Origin: Eledone cirrhosa
Lineage: Eukaryota
DNA length: 64,000 bases
Assembly: GCA_964016885.1 (NCBI GenBank)
Contig: OZ024743.1
Span: forward strand, 378,634,001 to 378,698,000
Reading direction: 5' to 3'
Under the pieces are notes generated by a model that saw nothing but the letters and a program-made list of their open reading frames with translations, did not search any database and was not told the origin of the DNA. Positions 1 to 22,760 of the stretch are shown here, in pieces (positions within the stretch are counted from its first letter, which is position 1; every line of letters begins with the position of its first letter). A program made the position numbers and the translations under genes.

Positions 1-808
1 CACCCTCCCCCACTGCTGATTTTATCACCCAGGTAACGGAAGCTGTCCACTATTTCTATAGAACCCTCTGCACAATTGAAAGAGCTAGTATTTTGTGGGC
101 ACTTGCTGCTACTTATTGCACCAGAGCACCGGCCACATGTAAAATCTATGTTCTTAGTTAGCTTACTTGTGATGCCACTACATCTTTTATGCACCCATAC
201 TTTGCATTTGGGACATAAAATGGAGTTTCTACCTACGCCTTTCCTACACACTGAGCATGGCCATTTCCCGGAAAGGACCGGCGCCTTATTTTCTTTCCTA
301 CAAACTAGAACTTTTGTCTTAGCCAGGTTAATTTTAAGGCCTTTTGATTCTAGGCCGTGCTTCCATGTTTGGAATTTCTTCTCTAGCTCGGCCATTGATT
401 CAGTTATGAGCGTTAGATCATCTGCGTATAGGAGTTCCCATGGGCAGCCGGTCTTGAACTCCTCTGTTATAGCCTGAAGGGCAATAATAAATAGTAGGGG
501 GCTAAGAACAGAGCCCTGATGGACACCAACTTTTACGCTAAACTCTTCACTATATTCGTTGTTAATTCTAACCTTGCTGACTGTTTCTTTATACATGGCT
601 TGTATAGCTCTCACAAGCCATTCGTCAACACCTAGTTTTCTAAGAGCCCACCAGATAATGGAACGGGGGACTCTGTCGAAGGCTTTCTCCAAGTCGACAA
701 AAGCTAAGTATAGGGGTTTACTTTTAGCTAGGTACTTCTCCTGTAGTTGTCATACAATGAAAAGAGCGTCTGTGGTACTTTTGCCTGACACAAACCCGAA
801 CTGCATTA
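1..808 (-). mobile_element. RTE-clade LINE (subfamily B), 5'-truncated RT region with stops, running off the window start
   Basis: Minus strand reads MQFGFV..STTDALFIV, FVDLEKAFDRVP, GVHQGSVLSPLLF, ELLYADDL and WPCSVCRKGVGRNSILCPKCK. Clearly diverged in DNA from the copy at 1480-4141. Confidence 0.9.
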
Positions 809-1479: not shown

Positions 1480-4141
1480 ACAAGCTATCAAGCACCCATG
1501 TGAAGCCCCAATCCAGAGAGAGGAAGCCCACACACACCCCTGCAAAAATCGACCCTTCCCTATGAGTGTCGACAAATGCCCAAAACTCTGAGTTGGTACC
1601 ATCAATGTAAGCACAATGAAAGGAAGAGCAGGAGAAATTTTAGAAATGCTAGAGCGAAAGGAAATTGATGTATGCTGTGTGCAAGAGACTAGATGGAGAG
1701 GAGAGTCTGCTAGAGTCCTTGTAGGAAAAGTCAGTGCTATAACTTACTAGAGGTGACGGATGAGGTCTGTGGCTGGAGTAAGACCACAGGCAGGAGGAGA
1801 GTGACTTGGTGGTGGAACAATAAGGTAGATGAGGCAGTTAAGGCCAAGAGACAGGCATGGAAAGAATGGAAGAATGGGGGGAGCAGGGTACATTACATAG
1901 AGACCAAGAGGGAAGCTAGGCGACAAGTATACTTAGCTAGGAGCGAAGCAGAGGATAGAAAATTCAAGCATGTTTTGCAACATGAGGACTAGAACCAGGA
2001 GGTGTTCAAGATTGCGAGGCAGTGTGTCAGAGAGAGTTGTGATGTCATTGGAGAGAAGTGTATCCGGAATGATAAAGGTGAGCTTGCCCTCACAAGTGCT
2101 GAGAAGAAAGATGCATGGAAGAGTCATTATGATAGATTACTAAATGAGGAGAATGCATGGGAAGAAGAGACGCTACCCCAAGTAGACCCTATAAAGGGGC
2201 CAGCAGTACAAGTCAGCGGCAGCGTAGTAAGTAAGGCAATCAAAGATATGAAGATGGGGAAGGCAACCGGTCCATCGGGTATAGCTGCCGAGATGCTGAA
2301 GGCATCTGGGTCTGTAGGTCACGCTATAACCACACGTATTGTTAACCAGGTAATACTAAAAGGTGTCATACCAAAAGATTGGTGCAGTAGCATCATTGTG
2401 AACTGCTACAAAGGTGATGCACTAGATAGAAGAAACTATAGAGGTATAAAACTGATGGACCAGGTCATGAAAGTAACAGAAAGAGTTATAGCACAGTTGA
2501 TTAGGGACCAGGTGAAAATAGATGAGATGCAATTTGGGTTTGTACCAGGAAGAAGCACCACTGATGCCCTCTTCCTTGTGAGGCAGTTACAGGAAAAGTA
2601 CCTAGCTAAAAGTAAGCCATTCTACCTGGCATTCGTCGATCTTGAGAAAGCTTTTGACAGAGTTCCACGTGCTGTAATCTGGTGGGCTCTTAGAAAACTA
2701 GGAGTAGATGAATGGCTTGTGAAAGCTGTATTGGGGAGCAGTCAGCAAAGTTAGGATTAGCAATGAGTATAGCGAGGAATTTAGCATACAGGTCGGTGTC
2801 CACCAGGGCTCTGTTCTTAGCCCTCTCCTGTTCATCATAGTCCTGCAGGCAATAACGGAGGAGTTTAAGACCGGATGCCCATGGCAACTCCTGTATGCTG
2901 ATGACCTCGCACTTATAGCTGAATCTATGGTAGAACTAGAGAAGAAATTCCAAACTTGGAAGCAGTGACTAGAAAGAAAGGGTCTCAAAGTCAACATGAC
3001 AAAGACTAAGGTCCTTGTAAGTAGACGAGAAAACAGAACCCAGATCCCCTCAGGAAAATGGCCTTGCTCAGTATGTAGGAAAGGTGTAGGTAGGAACTCC
3101 ATTCTCTGCCCCAAATGCAAACAATGGGTACACAAGAGATGTAGCGGGATCTCAGGAAGCTTAATTAAGAATGTAAGCTTCACATGTAGCAGCTGTGCTG
3201 GGACAGCAAGCAGCAAACAGCCACAGGAAACAAGTACCACCAATCTCTGGAAGGGCTCTGTAGAAACAGTAAACAGTTTCTGCTACCTAGGTGACCAAAT
3301 TAGCAGCGGAGGTGGGTGTACAGAAAGTACAATAACTAGGGTAAGAACGGGATGGAAGAAGTTCAGGGAACTACTGCCACTGCTAGCTGCAAAAGGCTAT
3401 TCCCACAAAATGAAAGGCAGACTGTATGATGCATGTATCTGAACAGCAATGTTGCATGGTAGGGAGACCTGGGCGCTGAAGGTGGAAGACTTACGTAGAT
3501 TAGAGAGAAACGAAGCCTGCATGCTCCGATGGATGTGTAACAATAATATACGTGAACGACAAAGCATAAATGAATTGAGAGAGAGACTGAGCATAAGAGG
3601 AATCAAATGCTGTGTGCAGGAGAGGCGGTTGCGCTGGTATGGACATGTGATGCGTATGAAGGATGACAGCTGCATAAAAAGGTGCAGAACACTAGAAGTC
3701 AATGGAAACCGCGGAGTGGGGAGACCCAAGAAGACCTGGGATGAGGTGATAACAGCCGACCTTACCCAATTACACCTCTCAAAGGCAATGACACACGACC
3801 GTGACCTCTGGTGTCACGCAGTAATACAGAGTACCCGACCTCCCAGGGGTACAAGCTGAAGCCCCCACACCCTCCCACTGCAAGGTGGTCGTGGAGGTGC
3901 CATGGCAAAAAAGCACCCAGCCCACACTGTAAAGTGGACGTGTAGGCGCCACAGAAAAAGCACCCAGCACTCACTGTAAATGAGGTTGGTGTTAGGAAGG
4001 GCATCCAGCTGTAGAAATCAAGCCAAATCAGTTCCTGTATGAGCAAGACAAGGTCAGCCGACCAGACACTGCCCACAACAGGACAATCCGTCTAATCCAT
4101 GCTAGCATGGAAGAATGGACGTAAAACGGTGATGATGATGA
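1480..4141 (+). mobile_element. RTE-clade LINE (subfamily A), decayed: APE endonuclease N-terminus, internal deletion, RT, PHD-like finger, 3' UTR, (GAT)n tail
   Basis: VGTINVSTMKGR..DVCCVQETRW (APE start, ~1590-1730) jumps to TWWWNNKV. RT motifs NYRGIKL, QFGFVPGRST, FVDLEKAFDRV, YADD. C-terminal RRLRWYGHVMR..RGVGRPKKTW. In-frame stops near 1990, 2967 and 3440; frameshift near 2730. Confidence 0.93.
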
Positions 4142-4879: not shown

Positions 4880-4921
<42 letters not shown>

Positions 4922-5106
4922 CACATGGCTTAATGGTTAGAGCATTGGCCTTGCAATTGAAAGGCTGTGAGTTCAATTCTCAGACTTTCTCCAGTGCCTC
5001 GTTACAGAACTCCAGGATGATATCACATATATACATTGTATGTATATACATATATACGCACATATATATATATATATATATATACGGGTAAATGTATATA
5101 TATATG

Positions 5107-9699: not shown

Positions 9700-10312
9700 A
9701 TGTCAGGTCACCAGTTGGTGCTACTGGTAACATGTATCCCAGTACAACCTGTCTCATGGTCGGGTCGTTGGCGACTAAACTGGCAACCCCACCAAGGTTT
9801 CTTGGTGAGGAGGGTGACTTTGGACATCCTGCAGGACTAAAAACAAAACCTGTCAAAGGGCAAAGGAGCTCTTAAGAGTCAATAGCCATCCAAAATCACC
9901 GGGAGAGATGACCCCTTAGCCTTTGTCAAGGCAGAATTCTAGGAGAAGGAAAACTCTGATATAACACCTGCAACCCTGATGGTATCCAATGATGTTGACT
10001 TGTTCTTCTTTTTGGTAAATATCATCTTGGTTAAGAGAGTGGGACTGGCTTTGTGCAGTGCCTTTGCTCACTATAAAAGCTTCACGGCACAGGCATTGCT
10101 TTATATCTGGAGATCTCTCTGCACTTGTCGTTATATGGTACCATGGGCCCAGCACTATGTGTCAATAATTGTCACAAGTGTAGTGTTTGTACCAGAGTTT
10201 TCAAGTCGCTGGCTGGACTAAAAAGTCACACTCGTTCAGCGCTTCGGTAGGGGTTCTCCTACATGGATATAAAGTAGTGGCCATACTCGAAAACGAGTTG
10301 GCAGCCACCATG
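9700..10312. mobile_element. Unclassified GC-richer insertion between TA runs, probably a retroelement UTR fragment
   Basis: Abrupt composition change, bounded by (TA)n at ~9670-9700 and ~10312-10328. No credible ORF. Confidence 0.35.
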
Positions 10313-10329
10313 TATATATATATATATTT

Positions 10330-10603
10330 AAAGGTTAAACAAGGTTCAATGAATAAATCAAAGAATGCGTTTTACAATAGATTGGAAGCACTCAAGAGAA
10401 ATGGTTTTCCGGAGTTATTAATATTAATTCAAAATATTACCAATGACTGGATCTTAACCATCTACTATGTCAAGGTATGTCATGCATTATCTTATTTTAT
10501 CTGATGAGGACGTACTATTGAAGTTAGCTCAGTACCTCTGAAATATGTATAATAAAATATACTTGATCACAAGAAGTTCTATTTTTGTTAATATTTTGAA
10601 TTA

Positions 10604-10604
<1 letters not shown>
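10330..10604 (+). mobile_element. Short non-coding hammerhead-bearing element (Penelope pLTR / retrozyme-like) inserted in (TA)n
   Basis: ~275 bp bounded by TA runs. Shares AAGCACTCAA, TATGTCA, the hammerhead and terminal TTTGTTAATAT with 20898-21158. Confidence 0.55.
10493..10559 (+). ncRNA. Minimal type I hammerhead ribozyme motif
   Basis: Stem I UAUUUUAU/AUAAAAUA; core CUGAUGA (10501-10507); stem II GGA-C-GUACU/AGUAC-C-UCU; GAAA (10540-10543); short near-palindromic stem III AUAUGUAU; AUA triplet with predicted cleavage after 10551. Confidence 0.75.
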
Positions 10605-10634
<30 letters not shown>

Positions 10635-17344: not shown

Positions 17345-20300
17345 TAATGAAATTATTGTGTAGTGCTCAGGTGCACTACAACTCATCAAAGGTGCATGTA
17401 TAGTACATAGAATAATGTACAAATGTCAGGAAAGTGAATAGTGTATGAGTCATGATATACATGTGTGCGTGTGAATGGAGGGGGAGTATTAGGTGTAGTG
17501 TTGGTGAATCTCAGGAAGCATGGAGGTTTTAAAGGGTGCAGTGTCTTGACAGCTAACAACTTATGCCGGGAGTTTTTTCCATGCTTCAGCAACTCTGAGC
17601 ATGAAAAAATGTTTCCGAAAGTCATGGGAGATGTGCTGTTTTCTCACTTTGTTGGCATGCCCACGTGTGTTAGACACAAGGAAATCAAAAAGGTACTCAG
17701 GGTTGTTGTTGGCAAGATGGTTAATAATTTTGTGGGTGTTTACCAAGTCAGTTGCCAGACGTCGGGGCTTCAATGTATCCATGCCCAGGGAAGTAAGGCG
17801 TTCAGAGTATGGTAGGTTCAGAGGATGGAGGGTATTCGCTTGGTTGCATATATCTGACCAGTTTCCAGGCAGTCAATGTTCTGAGCAAGATAGGGGTTCC
17901 AGACTGGTGATGCAAATTCTAAGTGTGGCCGCACCATAGCCATGTACAGCCTTAAATAGATAGCTGGAGAGCGGCTAACAAAAGTCTTGCTGAGTGATGC
18001 TAAGACATCCTCAGCCCTTTTGACAATTTTAGAGACGTGCTTCGGCCAACGCAAATCACTGCTGACCGTAATGCCCAGGTCACGTTCACAAGAAGACTTC
18101 TTGATATTAGTGTTGTGGAGGGAGTATGTGGACGCTGGGTTTTTACTCCCAAAATGCATGGTGATACACTTGTCCACAGCTAGCTTGAGTTGCCAGTCTG
18201 AGATCCATTGTTGCATTGTGTCCAGGTCAGACTGCAAGCAAGATCTATAGTGTTCAGGATCTGTCCTTTTTATCTCAAGGTACAGCTTGATGTCATCTGC
18301 GTACTTTAGTACTGTGGCATTCTTTAAGTTGGCATCTATGTCATTAATATATGCCACAAACAAAAGGGGCCAAGAACAGATCCCTGTGGTACACCAGATG
18401 ACATCTCATATGGTGAGGAATGCTGTCCCAGAACCGTGACTACCTCTCTTCGACTGAGAATGAAGGACTTCAACCAGTTAAAAAGATCATCCTTCACACC
18501 CATTGCAGAGAGTTTTGCCATAAGTCTTTTGTGTGGCACAGAATTGAAAGCTTTCGCAAAGTCAAGGTAAACAACATCCACCCATGAGCCGCCATCAGTG
18601 ATCCGGGTGATGTCTTCAAGAAACTTGATAATTTGATCTCAGCAGATGGAGTTGGGGATAAATCCAAATTGCGAGGGCCGGATAAGACTGTGAGAGTTCC
18701 AGAAGTTCCAAAGTGTTTCTCTGACACAGGATTCCATCAGTTTGGCAATGCAACTAGTAAGACTGACTGGACGATAGTTCACAGGTGATGTATGGTCACC
18801 CTTTTTGAACAGAGGAATGACACTGGCAGTTTTCCACTGTTCTGGAGTAGCACCGTTGTTCAGACAGAATTGGAAGAAGCGTGATAGCTGGTGCAGAAGG
18901 AAGTACCCACCACATTTGAGAAGCAGGTACATAACACCATCAAGACCAGGAGAGGCATGGTTGCGTTTATTTTTAAGGCGATGTTGCAGCATTGCAGGTG
19001 TAAATTCCATAGTTGTAATAGAATCCGATGTCATAGGTCGTGGAGACGGTACACTCTGGTCTTCAATAGTGAAAATGCCTGCATAGCATTCAGCAATGAG
19101 TTCTGCGCATTCCTTGGGGTCGTCAGTAACCTGGCTTGTGTGGGAATTGCGAAGAGGACCAACTGGAGAGTGAGGCCTCTGCTTTGAGTGAACATACTTC
19201 CAGAACACCTTACTGTCAGGGCTGGTTGCTATGCGCTGCTCAAATTGAAGCACTGCCTTTTTTGTCACCTGCTTGAGATGGTTGGATGATTTATTTCGTT
19301 TTTTCCTATTGATATCTGACTTATGCAGTTTGTACTCACGTTCAGCATTACAACGTTCTTTTCTGGCAAGACGGACTGCTGCAGTCTCCCAAATTGCACT
19401 TTACGGATGTTTTTTCTGCTTACATGGTACCGATGCTGCACATGTTGTCCATATTTAGTTCAGCATGTTCTGGAGTACAGTGTTGACATCTCCAGAGTCG
19501 TAAAACTCAAGCCAGTTTGGATGTTGCAGCTCGGTGCAGTAACAGTTCCAGTCTGCTTTATTCCAGTCAAAGTGAGCAGCTTGGAGATGGTTGTGGTTCT
19601 TGTTACTGCCCATGAGGGATAGATTGGCAATGATCATAGCATGATCAGTGTCACCTAAAGGTTCCTCAGTAGTAACACTAATAACTGTTTCAGGAGTAGT
19701 GGTGAAGAGCAGATCCAAAGTGTTGCCACCTCTTGTTGGGGAGGTGACTACTTGGGACCAGTTCGAGTCCAGCACTAGCTCAAGGAAATCATTTGCACTT
19801 TGCGCCAATGAAAGGTTTCCCAGTCACTCTCAGGGTGATTGAAGTCCCCTGCAATAAAAACCTAAGTGGCTGTTTTCCTGGCAGCAGATCTGAGGATATC
19901 ACAAAGTTGAGTGTCCTGATGGTAATTAGGGGGACGGTAAACGACTCCAAGTAGCAGTGTTGACAGAGTCATACGCAGAAAAATACCTCTTGCTGCGATT
20001 GGTTCAAATCAACACAAGGAATTGCTGAAAAATTTGACCGAACGTAGACCATTACACCACCACGACAACGATTAATGTGGTCTTTACAAAACAAGTTGTA
20101 GCCAGTTATGCTGAAAACCCCATCACAGAGTAAGGAATGTGCCCATGTTTCTGTGACTGTAATGAAGTCAGAGTCGATACTTTTGACGTAGGAGTCAAAA
20201 AGATGTATCTTATTGAATAGACTACGTGCATTCAAGGACAACAATTTGTACCTTGATTCCAGTCTATGATTATGTGCAGGGGATGGCAGATTGTTCTGAT

Positions 20301-20861: not shown

Positions 20862-20897
20862 ATATATATATATATATATATATAAATATATGTGTGT

Positions 20898-21158
20898 AGA
20901 AGTTCAATTTAAATTGTTGGGATACAACAAGCAAATATTTTTATAACTGATATAAAGCACTCAACAAATAATTGGAGTAGGGAGCTTCCAACAGTAATGG
21001 TTGCATTCTTTAAGAGTATGTCAATATTTATTTATAAAACTGCTCTATATTATATTTTATCTGATGAAAGCACACCATAATTTAACTTGGTGTCCTTGAA
21101 ATATGTATAATGAAATAAATATGGTTTTATAAATATAGTTTCCATTTGTTAATATCGT
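20898..21158 (+). mobile_element. Short non-coding hammerhead-bearing element (Penelope pLTR / retrozyme-like) inserted in (TA)n
   Basis: ~260 bp bounded by TA runs, with the same order of conserved words as 10330-10604. Its 3' end also resembles the fragment at 4831-4860. Confidence 0.55.
21053..21117 (+). ncRNA. Minimal type I hammerhead ribozyme motif (second, diverged copy)
   Basis: Stem I UAUUUUAU/AUGAAAUA; CUGAUGA (21061-21067); stem II AAG-C-ACACCA/UGGUGU-C-CUU; GAAA (21098-21101); same stem III; predicted cleavage after 21109. Stem II covaries with the copy at 10493. Confidence 0.77.
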
Positions 21159-21167
21159 ATATATATA

Positions 21168-22760
21168 TCATCATCACCGTTTTACGTCCGTTCTTCCACG
21201 CTAGCATGGGTTAGACGGGTTGTCCTGTTGTGGGCAGTGTCTGGTCGGCTGACCATGCCTTGCTCATACAGGAACTGATTTGGCTTGATTTCTACAGCTG
21301 GATGCCCTTCCTAACACCAACCTCATTTACAGTGAGTGCTGGGTGCTTTTTCGTGGCGCCTACACGTCCACTTTACAGTGTGGGCTGGGTGCTTTTTTTC
21401 CGTGGCACCTCCACGACCACCTTGCGGTGGAGGGTGTGGGGGCATATTGTCTATATGCTTCAGCTTGTACCCATGGGAGGTCGGGTACTCTGTATTACTG
21501 CGTGACGCCAGAGGTCACGGTCGTGTGTCATTGTCTTTGAGAGGTGTAATTGGGTAAGGTCGGCTTTTATCACCTCATCCCAGGTCATCTTGGGTCTCCC
21601 CACTCCGCGGTTTCCATCAACTTCTAGTGCTCTGCACCTTTTTATGCAGCTATCATCCTTCATACGCATCACATGTCCATACCAGCGCAACCGCCTCTCC
21701 TGCACACAGCATTTGATTCCTCTTATGCTCAGTCTCTCTCTCAATTCATTTATGCTTTGTCGTTCACGTATATTATTGTTACACATCCATCGGAGCATGC
21801 AGGCTTCGTTTCTCTCCAATCTACGTAAGTCTTCCACCTTCAGCGCCCAGGTCTCGCTACCATGCAACATCGCTGTTCGGATACACGCATCATACAGTCT
21901 GCCTTTCATTCTGAGGGAGAAGCCTTTCGCAGCTAGCAGTGGTAGTAGTTCCCTAAACTTCTTCCATCCCGTTCTTACCCTAGTTATTGCACTTTCTGAA
22001 CACCCACCTCCGTTGCTAATTCGGTCACCTAGGTAGCAGAAGCTGTCAACTGTTTCTACAGGGCTCTCCCAGAGATTGGTGGTACTTGTTTCCTGTGGCT
22101 GTTTGCTGTCTCAGCACAGCTGCTGCATGTGAATCCTACATTCTTAATTAAGCTTCCTGAGATCCCGCTACATCTCTTGTGTACCCATTGTTTGCATTTG
22201 GGGCAGAGAATGGAGTTCCTACCTACACCTTTCCTACATACTGAGCAAGGCCATTTCTCTGAGGGGATCTGGGTTCTGTTTTCTCGTCTACTTACAAGGA
22301 CCTTAGTCTTTGTCATGTTGACTTTGAGACCCTTTCTTTCTAGTCCCTGCTTCCAGGTTTGGAATTTCTTCTCTAGTTCTACCATAGATTCAGCTATGAG
22401 TGCGAGGTCATCAGCATACAGGAGTTCCCATGGGCATCCGGTCTTAAACTCCTCCGTTATTGCCTGCAGGACTATGATGAACAGGAGAGGGCTAAGAACA
22501 GAGCCCTGGTGGACCCCAACCTGTACGCTAAATTCCTCGCTATACTCATTGCTAATCCTAACTTTGCTGACTGCTCCCCTATACATGGCTTGTACCGCTT
22601 TCACAAGCCATTCATCTACTCCTAGTTTTCTAAGAGCCCACCAGATTACAGCACGTGGAACTCTGTCAAAGGCTTTCTCAAGGTCGACAAATGCCAAGTA
22701 GAGTGGCTTACTTTTAGCTAGGTACTTTTCCTGTAATTGCCTCACAAGGAAGAGGGCATC
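21168..22760 (-). mobile_element. RTE LINE subfamily A, 5'-truncated copy inserted in (TA)n
   Basis: ORFs 22056-22745 and 21460-21909 are nearly identical to those in 2560-3859. Has YADD, the C4HC3 finger, 3' UTR and (GAT)n tail. Confidence 0.94.

What the first reader, a model, noticed from the sequence alone, without database searches (positions are those of the whole stretch)
10493..10559. Hidden minimal type I hammerhead ribozyme in an AT-rich, microsatellite-embedded element
Seen: stem I (UAUUUUAU/AUAAAAUA), the exact core CUGAUGA...GAAA, a stem II of 8 pairs with one C-C mismatch at position 4, and an ultra-short near-palindromic stem III (AUAUGUAU) ending in an AUA cleavage triplet. 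Established: minimal type I hammerheads with short palindromic stem III mark Penelope-like element pLTRs and non-LTR retrozymes and are thought to cleave as dimers. Inference: this ~275-bp unit is a solo pLTR or non-autonomous retrozyme of a possibly uncharacterised family. The first stem II pair is G-U rather than the usual G-C, so activity may be reduced.
Basis: partly seen in the sequence, partly recalled or inferred. Interest (0 to 1): 0.75.

Follow-up and report, generated by a model that had tools for sequence, protein, structure and literature searches.

The report
Penelope retroelement hammerhead, unusual variant
The motif is a real hammerhead-ribozyme fold carried by a short, very abundant offshoot of a Penelope-like jumping gene that lands in TA repeats; it is a variant of a known kind that standard ribozyme models miss, and this lone copy is probably inert.

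Summary
It is not chance. A pattern that fixes only the core and helix III finds 106,649 matches in the 3.0-Gb genome, against 148 for the reversed control. Across 77 distinct modules, helices I and II covary: 95.7% of cells pair and 15 of 21 pairs change on both sides. A second family in this window (21053-21117) keeps the core but has a different, still-pairing helix II.

The module lies in both flanking direct repeats of a young Penelope-like element (PLE) that encodes a reverse transcriptase and a GIY-YIG-type endonuclease. The 277-bp unit (10330-10606) is a (TA)n-embedded, non-autonomous insertion made of PLE terminal parts.

PLE minimal hammerheads have been in print since 2014. This class differs in four ways:
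- no G10.1-C11.1 pair;
- no bulge after A9;
- a never-paired C at the fourth position of helix II (0 of 79);
- an 8-bp helix I.

No Rfam hammerhead model reports it. Cleavage is untested and no RNA data were found. I rate it a new variant of a known kind, of moderate interest.

The parts
10310..10329 (.). (TA)n microsatellite on the 5' side of the element
   Evidence: 28 of 29 other copies have (TA)>=4 upstream.
10330..10443 (+). 5' part 'A'. It corresponds to an inverted copy of the PLE terminal 'tail' plus 23 nt (10421-10443) that are the reverse complement of the element's own 3' end.
   Evidence: 10421-10443 matches 10607-10585 on the minus strand; fam-1 positions 1-114 lie in + orientation next to the minus-strand arm in L165 and L166. 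Searches show the analogous arrangement for the sister families.
10436..10452 (.). Junction zone between the two parts. It is hypervariable in length among copies.
   Evidence: The alignment of 30 copies has many different indel states here, while the flanks are conserved.
10453..10606 (+). 3' part 'B': the hammerhead-bearing arm, homologous in layout to the 3' end of the PLE repeat. The hammerhead core starts about 105 nt from the 3' end.
   Evidence: fam-1 positions 122-277 match both arms of L165 at 84% identity. Searches show the hammerhead about 100 nt from the arm end in L126.
10493..10500 (+). Helix I, 5' strand (UAUUUUAU)
   Evidence: The 8 helix I pairs are each kept in 60-71 of 77 distinct modules, with UA/CG, AU/GC and UA/AU exchanges. 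Pairing stops at position 9 (11 of 79).
10501..10507 (+). Core C3-A9 (CUGAUGA)
   Evidence: N7 varies among modules: U 64, A 9, C 4, G 2 of 79. The other core positions are 0.6-1.1% non-consensus in copies collected by whole-element similarity.
10508..10539 (+). Helix II (GGACGUAC / GUACCUCU) with a 16-nt loop and a C.C mismatch at position 10.4/11.4 (10511 and 10536)
   Evidence: 8 of 9 helix II pairs change on both sides. Position 4 is never paired: 0 of 79 (C.C 59, C.U 13, U.C 4, C.A 3).
10540..10543 (+). Core G12 A13 A14 A15.1 (GAAA)
   Evidence: 0-0.9% non-consensus in the family copies.
10544..10551 (+). Helix III near-palindrome UAUGUA, then U16.1 and A17. The predicted cleavage is after 10551.
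   Evidence: Other families have UAUAUA or UGCGCA here; the A-U to G-C exchange at columns 60/63 is seen in 10 of 77. Cleavage itself was not tested.
10552..10559 (+). Helix I, 3' strand (AUAAAAUA)
10585..10607 (+). 3' terminal 23 nt, the inverted repeat partner of 10421-10443
10607..10634 (.). (TA)n microsatellite on the 3' side
   Evidence: 29 of 29 other copies have (TA)>=4 downstream.
20896..21160 (+). Second (TA)n-flanked element, from a sister family, with the same layout
   Evidence: At least 1446 first-look candidates, 40 scored. Its 3' 176 bp are 84-89% identical to the arms of PLE copies L128-L131. Its 5' 81 bp are an inverted copy of the stretch that follows those arms.
21053..21117 (+). 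Hammerhead module of the sister family: UAUUUUAU CUGAUGA AAGCACACC..GGUGUCCUU GAAA UAUGUAUA AUGAAAUA
   Evidence: It keeps the same core and helix III, and has a different, still-pairing helix II with the C.C mismatch retained.

Best explanation
The 67-nt stretch is a type I hammerhead motif of the kind carried in the terminal repeats of Penelope-like retroelements, and it is predicted, though not shown, to cut its own transcript after A10551, most likely when two copies pair through the palindromic helix III.

Shown here:
- The fold (helices I, II and III around the full hammerhead core) is kept by compensatory changes across many families, totalling about 10^5 modules in this genome.
- The same module class lies in both direct flanking repeats of a young PLE. 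That element encodes a reverse transcriptase, a Cys-rich linker and a GIY-YIG-type endonuclease, and is flanked by (TA)n where I looked (L126, L135).
- The 277-bp unit at 10330-10606 is a non-autonomous insertion in a (TA)n tract. It consists of an inverted piece of the repeat's tail joined to the hammerhead-bearing arm.

Inferred:
- In full-length or tandem copies, the two hammerheads would trim read-through transcripts to unit-length RNA, which serves as the template for target-primed reverse transcription at (TA)n sites.
- The always-unpaired C at the fourth position of helix II likely stands in for the usual loop-loop contact with helix I, or binds a factor.
- The solo window copy has one intact-looking motif and no partner in cis, so it is probably an inert relic unless it is read through and paired in trans.
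For: Anatomy.

Not chance:
- The descriptor finds 2 hits in the window and 0 in 1000 shuffles.
- The genome pattern CTGANGA-N20-40-GAAATRYRYATA gives 53,878 + 52,771 matches against 67 + 81 for the reversed control.
- The family-specific 17-mer gives 9,798 matches against 0.

Covariation on 77 distinct modules:
- 95.7% of cells pair, against 83.1% in shuffles (0 of 500 reach it) and 35-52% when partners are slid.
- 15 of 21 pairs change on both sides.
- The covariation score is 0.489 against 0.240.

Core behaviour:
- N7 is the only variable core position.
- In copies collected by whole-element BLAST, core and helix III are 0-1.1% non-consensus against 4.3-6.4% for the rest of the element.

PLE link:
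- The ORF family (P0001) matches a Pfam-confirmed RVT_1 + GIY-YIG ORF by hhalign (96.6%, E 6e-10, 417 columns).
- 55 scored copies are 98-100% identical in protein and 51 of 55 have no stop.
- A hammerhead lies on the ORF strand both upstream and downstream in 20 of 30 loci.
- The direct repeats in L135 are 380 bp long and 98.4% identical.
- The family-1 type hammerhead flanks a PLE ORF remnant in L165.
- The sister family is 84-89% identical to PLE arms.
- (TA)n lies on both sides in 28 of 29 and 27 of 29 copies.

Literature:
- PLE repeats carry minimal hammerheads with a long helix II and a palindromic helix III. They often occur solo or as opposite-strand pairs 100-700 bp apart, and show low activity in vitro (PMC4209133; parts 1-2 of 4 read).
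- (TA)n is a preferred PLE target (PMC8557442, passages).
Against: - No Rfam hammerhead model reports the motif, even at E<=10 on 82 nt. In the same search that found two canonical-type hammerheads of this genome (31.7 and 26.6 bits), none of the variant modules appeared.
- The G10.1-C11.1 pair, called highly conserved in canonical and PLE minimal hammerheads (PMC4209133), is present in only 5 of 77 modules.
- Nearest-neighbour energy of the hammerhead fold for the window copy is +0.1 kcal/mol, against -7.3 for another fold. The whole stretch is no more stable than shuffles (z 0.47).
- Helix III as a monomer is two A-U pairs; its self-duplex is only -2.2 kcal/mol.
- The modules in the covariation set were chosen by a pattern that fixes the core and constrains helix III to R/Y alternation. 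Core invariance and part of the helix III pairing are therefore imposed.
- Related copies share ancestry, so shuffle controls overstate significance.
- No cleavage or expression data exist here.
Confidence: 0.8

Rival explanations
1. The fold is selected but is no longer, or only weakly, a ribozyme. It would serve as a structured 3'-end signal that the PLE reverse transcriptase/endonuclease recognises, with the hammerhead core kept for binding rather than cutting.
For: The canonical G10.1-C11.1 pair is missing in 72 of 77 modules. The predicted monomer fold is unstable. [quoted passage not shown] Thousands of solo short copies spread although each has only one motif.
Against: All invariant hammerhead core nucleotides, the A15.1-U16.1 pair and a non-G at position 17 are kept in copies gathered without reference to the motif. 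Only N7, the position that hammerhead catalysis tolerates, varies. The palindromic helix III covaries as expected for dimer formation (UAUAUA, UGCGCA).
Confidence: 0.15
2. The unit is a non-LTR retrozyme. Tandem copies would be transcribed, cut at successive hammerheads and ligated into small circular RNAs that are the template for spread.
For: Direct head-to-tail units exist (L167, two arms 205 bp apart). Same-strand neighbours of different families lie 287-581 bp apart in several loci. The unit size (205-277 bp) is in the 170-400 nt range of animal retrozymes (PMC7229834, passages). A 2026 preprint argues that animal retrozymes derive from PLE repeats (10.64898/2026.07.22.740005; abstract only).
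Against: The window copy and most copies are solo. By my reading of the list, the first 100 genome matches of the family 17-mer include only one or two direct close pairs and about five divergent pairs. The common pair type is divergent, on opposite strands, which cannot give two cuts on one transcript. No RNA run was found.
Confidence: 0.1
3. The unit is a MITE of a TA-targeting DNA transposon, and the hammerhead-like string is incidental.
For: It has TA-rich flanks and a 23-nt inverted repeat (10421-10443 with 10585-10607).
Against: The inverted repeat is internal, not terminal: the 5' end 10330-10420 has no partner. The arms are shared with RT/GIY-YIG elements. No transposase was found inside the long versions. 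Helices covary at the RNA level.
Confidence: 0.02
4. It is a chance co-occurrence of CUGAUGA and GAAA with AT-rich pairings, amplified because it sits in a repeat.
For: Rfam is silent. Helix I is all A-U, and the fold is not more stable than shuffles.
Against: A different helix II sequence with the same pairing occurs in at least ten stem types. Helix I is fully replaced by ACUGC/GCAGU in another family. The pattern is about 720-fold enriched over the reversed control.
Confidence: 0.01

Closest known systems
Minimal hammerheads (min-HHRs) in the terminal repeats of metazoan Penelope-like elements (Cervera and de la Pena 2014, PMC4209133)
   Same: Type I topology with the full catalytic core. 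Location in both flanking repeats of an RT + GIY-YIG element. A long helix II. A short palindromic helix III, implying action as a dimer. Many sequence families per genome, full of compensatory changes. Most copies are solo or lie in opposite-strand pairs a few hundred bp apart.
   Different: There is no unpaired nucleotide between A9 and 10.1. The 10.1-11.1 pair is A-U or G.U instead of the 'highly conserved' G-C (5 of 77 are G-C). A conserved 1x1 mismatch with a 5' C sits at the fourth helix II position. Helix I is 8 bp rather than 4-5 bp. Helix III carries a 6-nt palindrome, giving an AUA cut site rather than GUC. The copy number (about 1.07 x 10^5 pattern matches) is about ten times the 9,000 reported for Xenopus tropicalis in that paper. 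I did not see its supplementary alignments, which may hold similar variants.
Drosophila virilis Penelope hammerhead variant and the related shrimp, rotifer and mosquito variants (same paper)
   Same: An irregularity in the middle of helix II (there a bulged nucleotide) and a small palindromic helix III. These motifs also escaped the standard descriptor.
   Different: The D. virilis motif has a 2-bp helix I, a 2-nt palindromic insertion and the bulge after A9. Here helix I is 8 bp, the insertion is 6 nt and there is no bulge after A9.
Neptune/Nematis-type and Naiad PLEs that target (TA)n (Craig et al. 2021, PMC8557442)
   Same: Insertion in (TA)n microsatellites, a Cys-rich linker before the GIY-YIG domain, tandem and inverted insertion structures, and a short 'tail' at one end.
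   Different: Naiads have the endonuclease at the N-terminus and are reported to lack canonical hammerheads. Here the endonuclease-like part is C-terminal and a non-canonical hammerhead is present. I did not test clade membership of the ORF by phylogeny.
Animal non-LTR retrozymes (Cervera and de la Pena 2020, PMC7229834)
   Same: Non-autonomous units of a few hundred bp, low in GC, each with a type I hammerhead and thought to be mobilised by PLE-like machinery.
   Different: Retrozymes are defined as tandem repeats expressed as circular RNAs, with canonical loop-loop contacts in invertebrates. Here copies are mostly solo, flanked by (TA)n, and have an inverted tail piece. No RNA evidence was found.
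Rfam Hammerhead_1 (RF00163)
   Same: The same core and the same type I order of helices.
   Different: The variant is not reported by the model at any threshold tried. Canonical-type copies in the same genome score 26.6-31.7 bits.

Membership tests
Hammerhead ribozyme, type I | Conserved core C3 U4 G5 A6 N7 G8 A9 / G12 A13 A14, the A15.1-U16.1 pair, and H17 not G | tested here: met
   for the window copy. The core is kept in family copies gathered by whole-element similarity (0-1.1% non-consensus). N7 varies.
Hammerhead ribozyme, type I | Three helices around the core, with helix I open-ended, supported by covariation | tested here: met
   6 of 8 helix I pairs and 8 of 9 helix II pairs change on both sides; 95.7% of cells pair, against 35-52% for slid controls.
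Hammerhead ribozyme, type I | G10.1-C11.1 base pair | tested here: not met
   The window copy has G.U. Across 77 modules the pair is A-U 46, G.U 22, G-C 5 and other 3.
Hammerhead ribozyme, type I | Match to a curated covariance model (Rfam RF00163 or other hammerhead families) | tested here: not met
   No hit. The positive control finds canonical-type copies only.
Hammerhead ribozyme, type I | Site-specific self-cleavage | not testable with these tools
   No RNA run is on record, and the runs laid were contigs that cannot show ends.
PLE minimal hammerhead (min-HHR) | Located in the flanking repeats of an RT + GIY-YIG Penelope-like element | tested here: met
   (20 of 30 loci with both), and 77 for the family of the finding.
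PLE minimal hammerhead (min-HHR) | Palindromic positions 15.2-16.2 or loop 3 (dimer-capable helix III) | tested here: met
   UAUGUA, UAUAUA and UGCGCA. This is partly imposed by the search pattern, but helix III is also 0% non-consensus in BLAST-gathered copies.
PLE minimal hammerhead (min-HHR) | [quoted passage not shown] | tested here: not met
   The best register pairs the base right after A9 in 74 of 77 modules. Slid registers pair far less.
PLE minimal hammerhead (min-HHR) | Long helix II (7-8 bp) and short helix I (4-5 bp) | tested here: inconclusive
   Helix II is long (8-16 bp with one mismatch), so that part is met. Helix I is 8 bp, so that part is not met.
Animal non-LTR retrozyme | Head-to-tail tandem repeats, each unit with a hammerhead | tested here: not met
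   The window copy is solo. Tandems are rare: L167, and one or two of the first 100 matches by my reading.
Animal non-LTR retrozyme | Expression as unit-length linear and circular RNA | not testable with these tools
Penelope-like element (the autonomous partner) | Single ORF with a reverse transcriptase followed by a GIY-YIG endonuclease | tested here: met
   hhalign to a Pfam-confirmed RVT_1 + GIY-YIG ORF gives 96.6%, E 6e-10. BLASTP aligns the C-terminal GIY-YIG region collinearly. Pfam itself hits only 1 of 20 homologues for each domain and is silent on P0001.

The most novel reading that the evidence does not exclude
These roughly 10^5 modules are a distinct structural subclass of hammerhead. 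A strictly conserved unpaired C three pairs above the core (position 10.4/11.4), together with the end of an 8-bp helix I, replaces the classical loop-loop tertiary contact. The G10.1-C11.1 pair is dispensable. The ribozyme is switched on only when two RNAs pair through the (UA)3 or UGCGCA palindrome. It processes the transcripts of a currently active, (TA)n-targeting Penelope-like element. Current covariance models and descriptors are blind to it, so hammerhead counts in such genomes are underestimated by orders of magnitude.
Probability: 0.3. Interest if true: 0.7.

Novelty: new variant of a known kind. Interest (0 to 1): 0.45.

Why it matters
Hammerheads in Penelope-like elements are known, so the biology is not new. 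Three things are still useful.

1. A whole class of about 10^5 hammerhead-type motifs in one animal genome goes unreported by Rfam's hammerhead models. Annotation pipelines that count 'Hammerhead_1' hits therefore miss it. For comparison, a giant squid genome paper reports 235 such hits (PMC6962438, passage).

2. Two features of the class go against what is held to be conserved in natural hammerheads: the absence of G10.1-C11.1 and a mismatch at helix II position 4 that is never paired in any of the 79 modules sampled. They give a natural test set for how much of the fold catalysis needs.

3. The carrier element looks recently active: 51 of 55 scored ORF copies are open at 98-100% identity. 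It is tied to (TA)n microsatellites, which may help explain the microsatellite load of this genome.

Tried and rejected
- **Rfam searches.** No hammerhead hit. The only hits were weak chance matches to snoRNA and CRISPR models.
- **Single-sequence folding.** Not informative (z 0.47).
- **Cofolding two modules.** It gave an extended duplex of the helix II hairpins, not a hammerhead dimer, so it is not informative.
- **GIY-YIG Pfam search of the genome, then 30 loci and five long ORF regions.** These top-scoring PLEs belong to other families. My descriptor found no convincing hammerhead in them: the few relaxed-threshold hits were weak, apart from one ACUGC-type module 3.8 kb from the ORF in L094. 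This route did not lead to the partner element. The partner came from divergent pairs in the pattern list.
- **Pfam on the partner ORFs.** Silent.
- **PDB sequence search with the profile.** Only chance hits.
- **Precomputed Pfam labels PF26215 and PF28514 on homologues.** They could not be named with the local library.
- **RNA evidence.** No RNA holder is listed. The four runs laid are contigs of unknown kind, behave like genomic DNA and cannot show ends. One 'go-back' joint (10554 to 10476 with TA between) was seen in three of the four runs and not pursued.
- **Earlier findings of this scan.** None for this genome or this sequence.
- **Idea that cleavage exposes a (UA)n 3' end to anneal to (TA)n targets.** Rejected as unlikely. 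The UGCGCA families also sit in (TA)n (L126), and all copies keep the roughly 55 nt downstream of the cut site.

Full report
**1. Observation**

The stretch 10493-10559 (+) reads UAUUUUAU CUGAUGA GGACGUAC (16-nt loop) GUACCUCU GAAA UAUGUAUA AUAAAAUA. This gives:
- helix I of 8 A-U pairs;
- the complete hammerhead core;
- helix II of 7 pairs plus a C.C mismatch at its fourth position, with G.U as its first pair;
- A15.1 and U16.1 enclosing the near-palindrome UAUGUA;
- A17 at 10551.

A descriptor at this stringency finds two hits in the window (core starts 10501 and 21061). It finds none in 1000 block shuffles of the 26 kb of the window that is not satellite.

Rfam does not see the motif. There is no hammerhead hit at the gathering score, nor at E<=10 on 401 nt or on 82 nt. 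Folding alone is not supportive either. The stretch is no more stable than shuffles (z 0.47). The hammerhead secondary structure scores +0.1 kcal/mol, against -7.3 for another fold.

**2. The carrier is a high-copy repeat in TA microsatellites**

The unit 10330-10606 has at least 2822 first-look candidates in the 3.0-Gb genome. The 40 scored are 87-95% identical. The alignment with flanks shows sharp ends and (TA)n on both sides: 28 of 29 other copies have (TA)>=4 on both sides.

A BLAST of the unit against the fetched loci and the window gave an unexpected result. Exactly the 67-nt module, and nothing else, matched at 74-77% identity in other places, including 21053-21117 in this window.

**3. 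Comparative evidence for the fold**

The second element (20896-21160; at least 1446 candidates) has the same helix I, core and helix III. Its helix II is different: AAGCACACC/GGUGUCCUU. It still pairs, and it keeps a C.C mismatch at position 4.

Scanning the flanks of the fetched copies turned up further families:
- AGGCAUACC/GGUAUCCCU;
- AAGCGCACC.../...GGUUGCACUU;
- AAACACAAAU.../...AUUUGUUUUU, with helix III UGCGCA;
- GGUCACAGCC/GGCUGUCACC, with helix I replaced by ACUGC/GCAGU;
- GGACGUAC/GUACAUCC, with a UGUU loop.

A genome-wide pattern that fixes only CUGANGA, a 20-40 nt gap and GAAAURYRYAUA gives 53,878 forward and 52,771 reverse matches. The reversed control gives 67 and 81.

I then collected modules from all fetched loci by that sequence-only pattern, which sets no pairing requirement in helices I and II. 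This gave 126 instances and 79 unique sequences. One (L100) looks like a chance match and two are truncated.
- Helix II positions 1-3, 5-7, 9 and 10 pair in 70-78 of 79, each with two to four Watson-Crick pair types.
- Position 4 pairs in 0 of 79 (C.C 59, C.U 13, U.C 4, C.A 3).
- Helix I pairs in 68-78 of 79 over 8 positions, then drops to 11 of 79 at position 9.
- N7 is U 64, A 9, C 4, G 2.

On the MAFFT alignment A1, the named structure gave these results:
- 95.7% of cells are paired, against 83.1% in shuffles (0 of 500 reach the observed value) and 35-52% with slid partners;
- 15 of 21 pairs change on both sides;
- the covariation score is 0.489 against 0.240.

Caveats:
- The pattern fixes the core and forces R/Y alternation in helix III, so those parts are not independent.
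- Copies share ancestry.

As a check free of the pattern, I took 29 + 29 copies gathered by whole-element BLAST. In these, core and helix III positions are 0-1.1% non-consensus, against 6.4% and 4.3% for the rest of the two elements.

**4. What carries it: a Penelope-like element**

The list showed many divergent (-)(+) pairs of identical modules, 140-400 bp or 1-5 kb apart. Eight of the long pairs were fetched. They are bounded by inverted arms of 276-1917 bp at 96-99.8% identity, each with an outward-facing module about 100 nt from its tip. They enclose ORFs of up to 821 aa.

Pfam is silent on these ORFs. The sequence, however, shows RT-like motifs (FDIxxYYSSI, YRDD), a Cys-rich linker and an IYEC...YFGST...R..NH stretch. 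Further support:
- BLASTP aligns the RT part (E 2e-4) and the C-terminal part (E 0.033) collinearly with a Pfam-confirmed RVT_1 + GIY-YIG ORF of this genome.
- A 20-member profile aligns with that ORF by hhalign at 96.6% probability, E 6e-10, over 417 columns.
- Of the 20 members, one hits RVT_1 (3e-4) and one hits GIY-YIG (1.2e-3). These are the two best Pfam families.

The two ORFs from different hammerhead families are 55% identical.

In the genome, 55 scored matches to P0001 are 98-100% identical and 51 of 55 have no stop. In the 30 loci oriented by the ORF:

| Hammerhead position | Loci (of 30) |
|---|---|
| On the ORF strand, about 200 nt upstream | 22 |
| On the ORF strand, about 1.0-1.2 kb downstream | 25 |
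| Both of the above | 20 |
| Extra inverted module further upstream | 8 |

In L135 the two direct repeats are 380 bp long and 98.4% identical, and the element ends in (TA)n. This is the published PLE layout, with hammerheads in both flanking repeats (PMC4209133).

**5. The short elements are PLE offshoots**

- The 3' 176 bp of the sister family match the arms of PLE copies L128-L131 at 84-89% identity.
- Its 5' 81 bp match, in inverted orientation, the stretch that follows those arms at one end. In L135 that stretch is simply the last roughly 90 nt of the direct repeat.
- For the family of the finding, L165 has GGACGUAC-type modules in divergent arms around a PLE ORF remnant (tblastn, 44-63% identity to P0001/P0002). 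Positions 1-114 of the unit lie in + orientation beside the minus-strand arm.
- The 23 nt at 10421-10443 are the reverse complement of the unit's own 3' end.
- The zone just after it (10436-10452) differs in length among otherwise similar copies.

The unit therefore reads as a short inverted piece (tail plus a little of the arm) joined head-to-head to a hammerhead-bearing arm. That is the inverted-plus-tail structure described for PLE insertions (PMC8557442, figure 2 legend, seen as a passage). Whether the inverted piece is made anew at each insertion or is copied as part of the unit is not settled here.

The family-specific 17-mer occurs 9,798 times, against 0 for the control. L167 holds a direct tandem of two arms 205 bp apart. 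Of the 58 repeat-copy loci, 16 hold two or more modules within 3.3 kb.

**6. Mechanism**

Shown:
- a conserved three-helix fold with a hammerhead core;
- its location in PLE repeats;
- (TA)n context.

Inferred from the literature on PLE hammerheads (PMC4209133, parts 1-2 read):
- The motif would cut transcripts after position 17, here after 10551. This would most likely occur as a dimer through the palindromic helix III. Self-duplex energies are -2.2, -3.2 and -10.5 kcal/mol for the three palindromes.
- This would yield unit-length templates from repeats or tandems.

The solo window copy has no partner in cis. The other motif in the window is 10.5 kb away and belongs to another family. The copy is probably inert.

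The conserved unpaired C sits where loop 2 begins in canonical 4-bp helix II hammerheads. I propose it as the docking point for helix I. This is inference only.

**7. Comparison and novelty**

Compared with the published PLE minimal hammerheads, this class lacks the bulge after A9 and the G10.1-C11.1 pair (5 of 77). It has an 8-bp helix I, a 6-nt palindrome in helix III and the position-4 mismatch.

In a control search, Rfam Hammerhead_1 found the two canonical-type hammerheads in L056 and L058 (31.7 and 26.6 bits) but none of the variant modules in the same loci or in L126.

Full-text searches found no description of this variant or of hammerheads in the group of the closest named homologue:
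- 'hammerhead ribozyme' + 'Penelope-like' + 'microsatellite';
- 'Penelope-like' + 'hammerhead' + 'helix III' + 'minimal';
- 'hammerhead' + 'Penelope' + 'octopus';
- 'hammerhead ribozyme' + 'cephalopod'.

I did not see the supplementary alignments of PMC4209133 or supplementary file S1 of PMC8557442, which lists 'HHR_core' and 'HHR_half_core' cases.

Earlier notes of this scan on other genomes reached the same general verdict for PLE hammerhead solos. They are leads, not support.

**8. Verdict**

The motif is a known kind of element with a structurally distinct, very abundant hammerhead variant that escapes standard models. Catalysis and expression remain untested.

Noticed in passing
window 23278-62642: A 39-kb satellite array: 67-bp unit, 587 copies, 94% matches, with strongly skewed composition (GC skew about +0.33). 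It looks unrelated to the hammerhead module.
   Followed up: partly
window 3-749 (-), 1993-2751 (+), 17821-19400 (-), 21463-22760 (-): Fragments of retrotransposon ORFs with RVT_1 followed by a PHD finger. One lies right beside the second hammerhead element. They look like a different, non-PLE retroelement family.
   Followed up: no
window 4919-4993 (+): tRNA-like match just at the Rfam gathering score (29.4 against 29 bits). It may be a tRNA-derived SINE head.
   Followed up: no
L056:1097-1141 and L058:631-677: Canonical-type PLE hammerheads (GUCC..GGAC helix II, GAAAC..GUC) occur in the same genome, within 300-1000 bp of variant modules on the same strand. Two hammerhead classes therefore coexist.
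   Followed up: partly
G000 genome-wide; e.g. L134-L163: The carrier PLE family looks very young: 55 scored ORF copies at 98-100% protein identity, 51 without stops, and 106,082 first-look candidates. The closest named database homologue (37% identity) is annotated as 'GATA zinc finger domain-containing protein 14-like' in an octopod record, which looks like a mis-annotated PLE ORF.
   Followed up: partly
window 10476-10554, in runs X1, X2 and X4: Contigs show a 'go-back' joint from 10554 to 10476 with TA between. Somewhere the hammerhead module is repeated head-to-tail with a period of about 81 nt. The kind of the runs is unknown.
   Followed up: no
L091:1775-5062, L092:4809-7622 (-): Other PLE families with long open ORFs (1096 and 938 aa; RVT_1 and GIY-YIG by Pfam) end in CA/TA microsatellites. 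My descriptor found no hammerhead in them. The genome has at least 10,595 GIY-YIG candidates.
   Followed up: partly
loci L002-L060, flanks: The genome is extremely rich in (TA)n, (CA)n, (GA)n and other microsatellites around these elements. New copies often sit next to older ones of other families, 287-581 bp apart on the same strand. This suggests that each insertion's TA flanks act as targets for the next.
   Followed up: no
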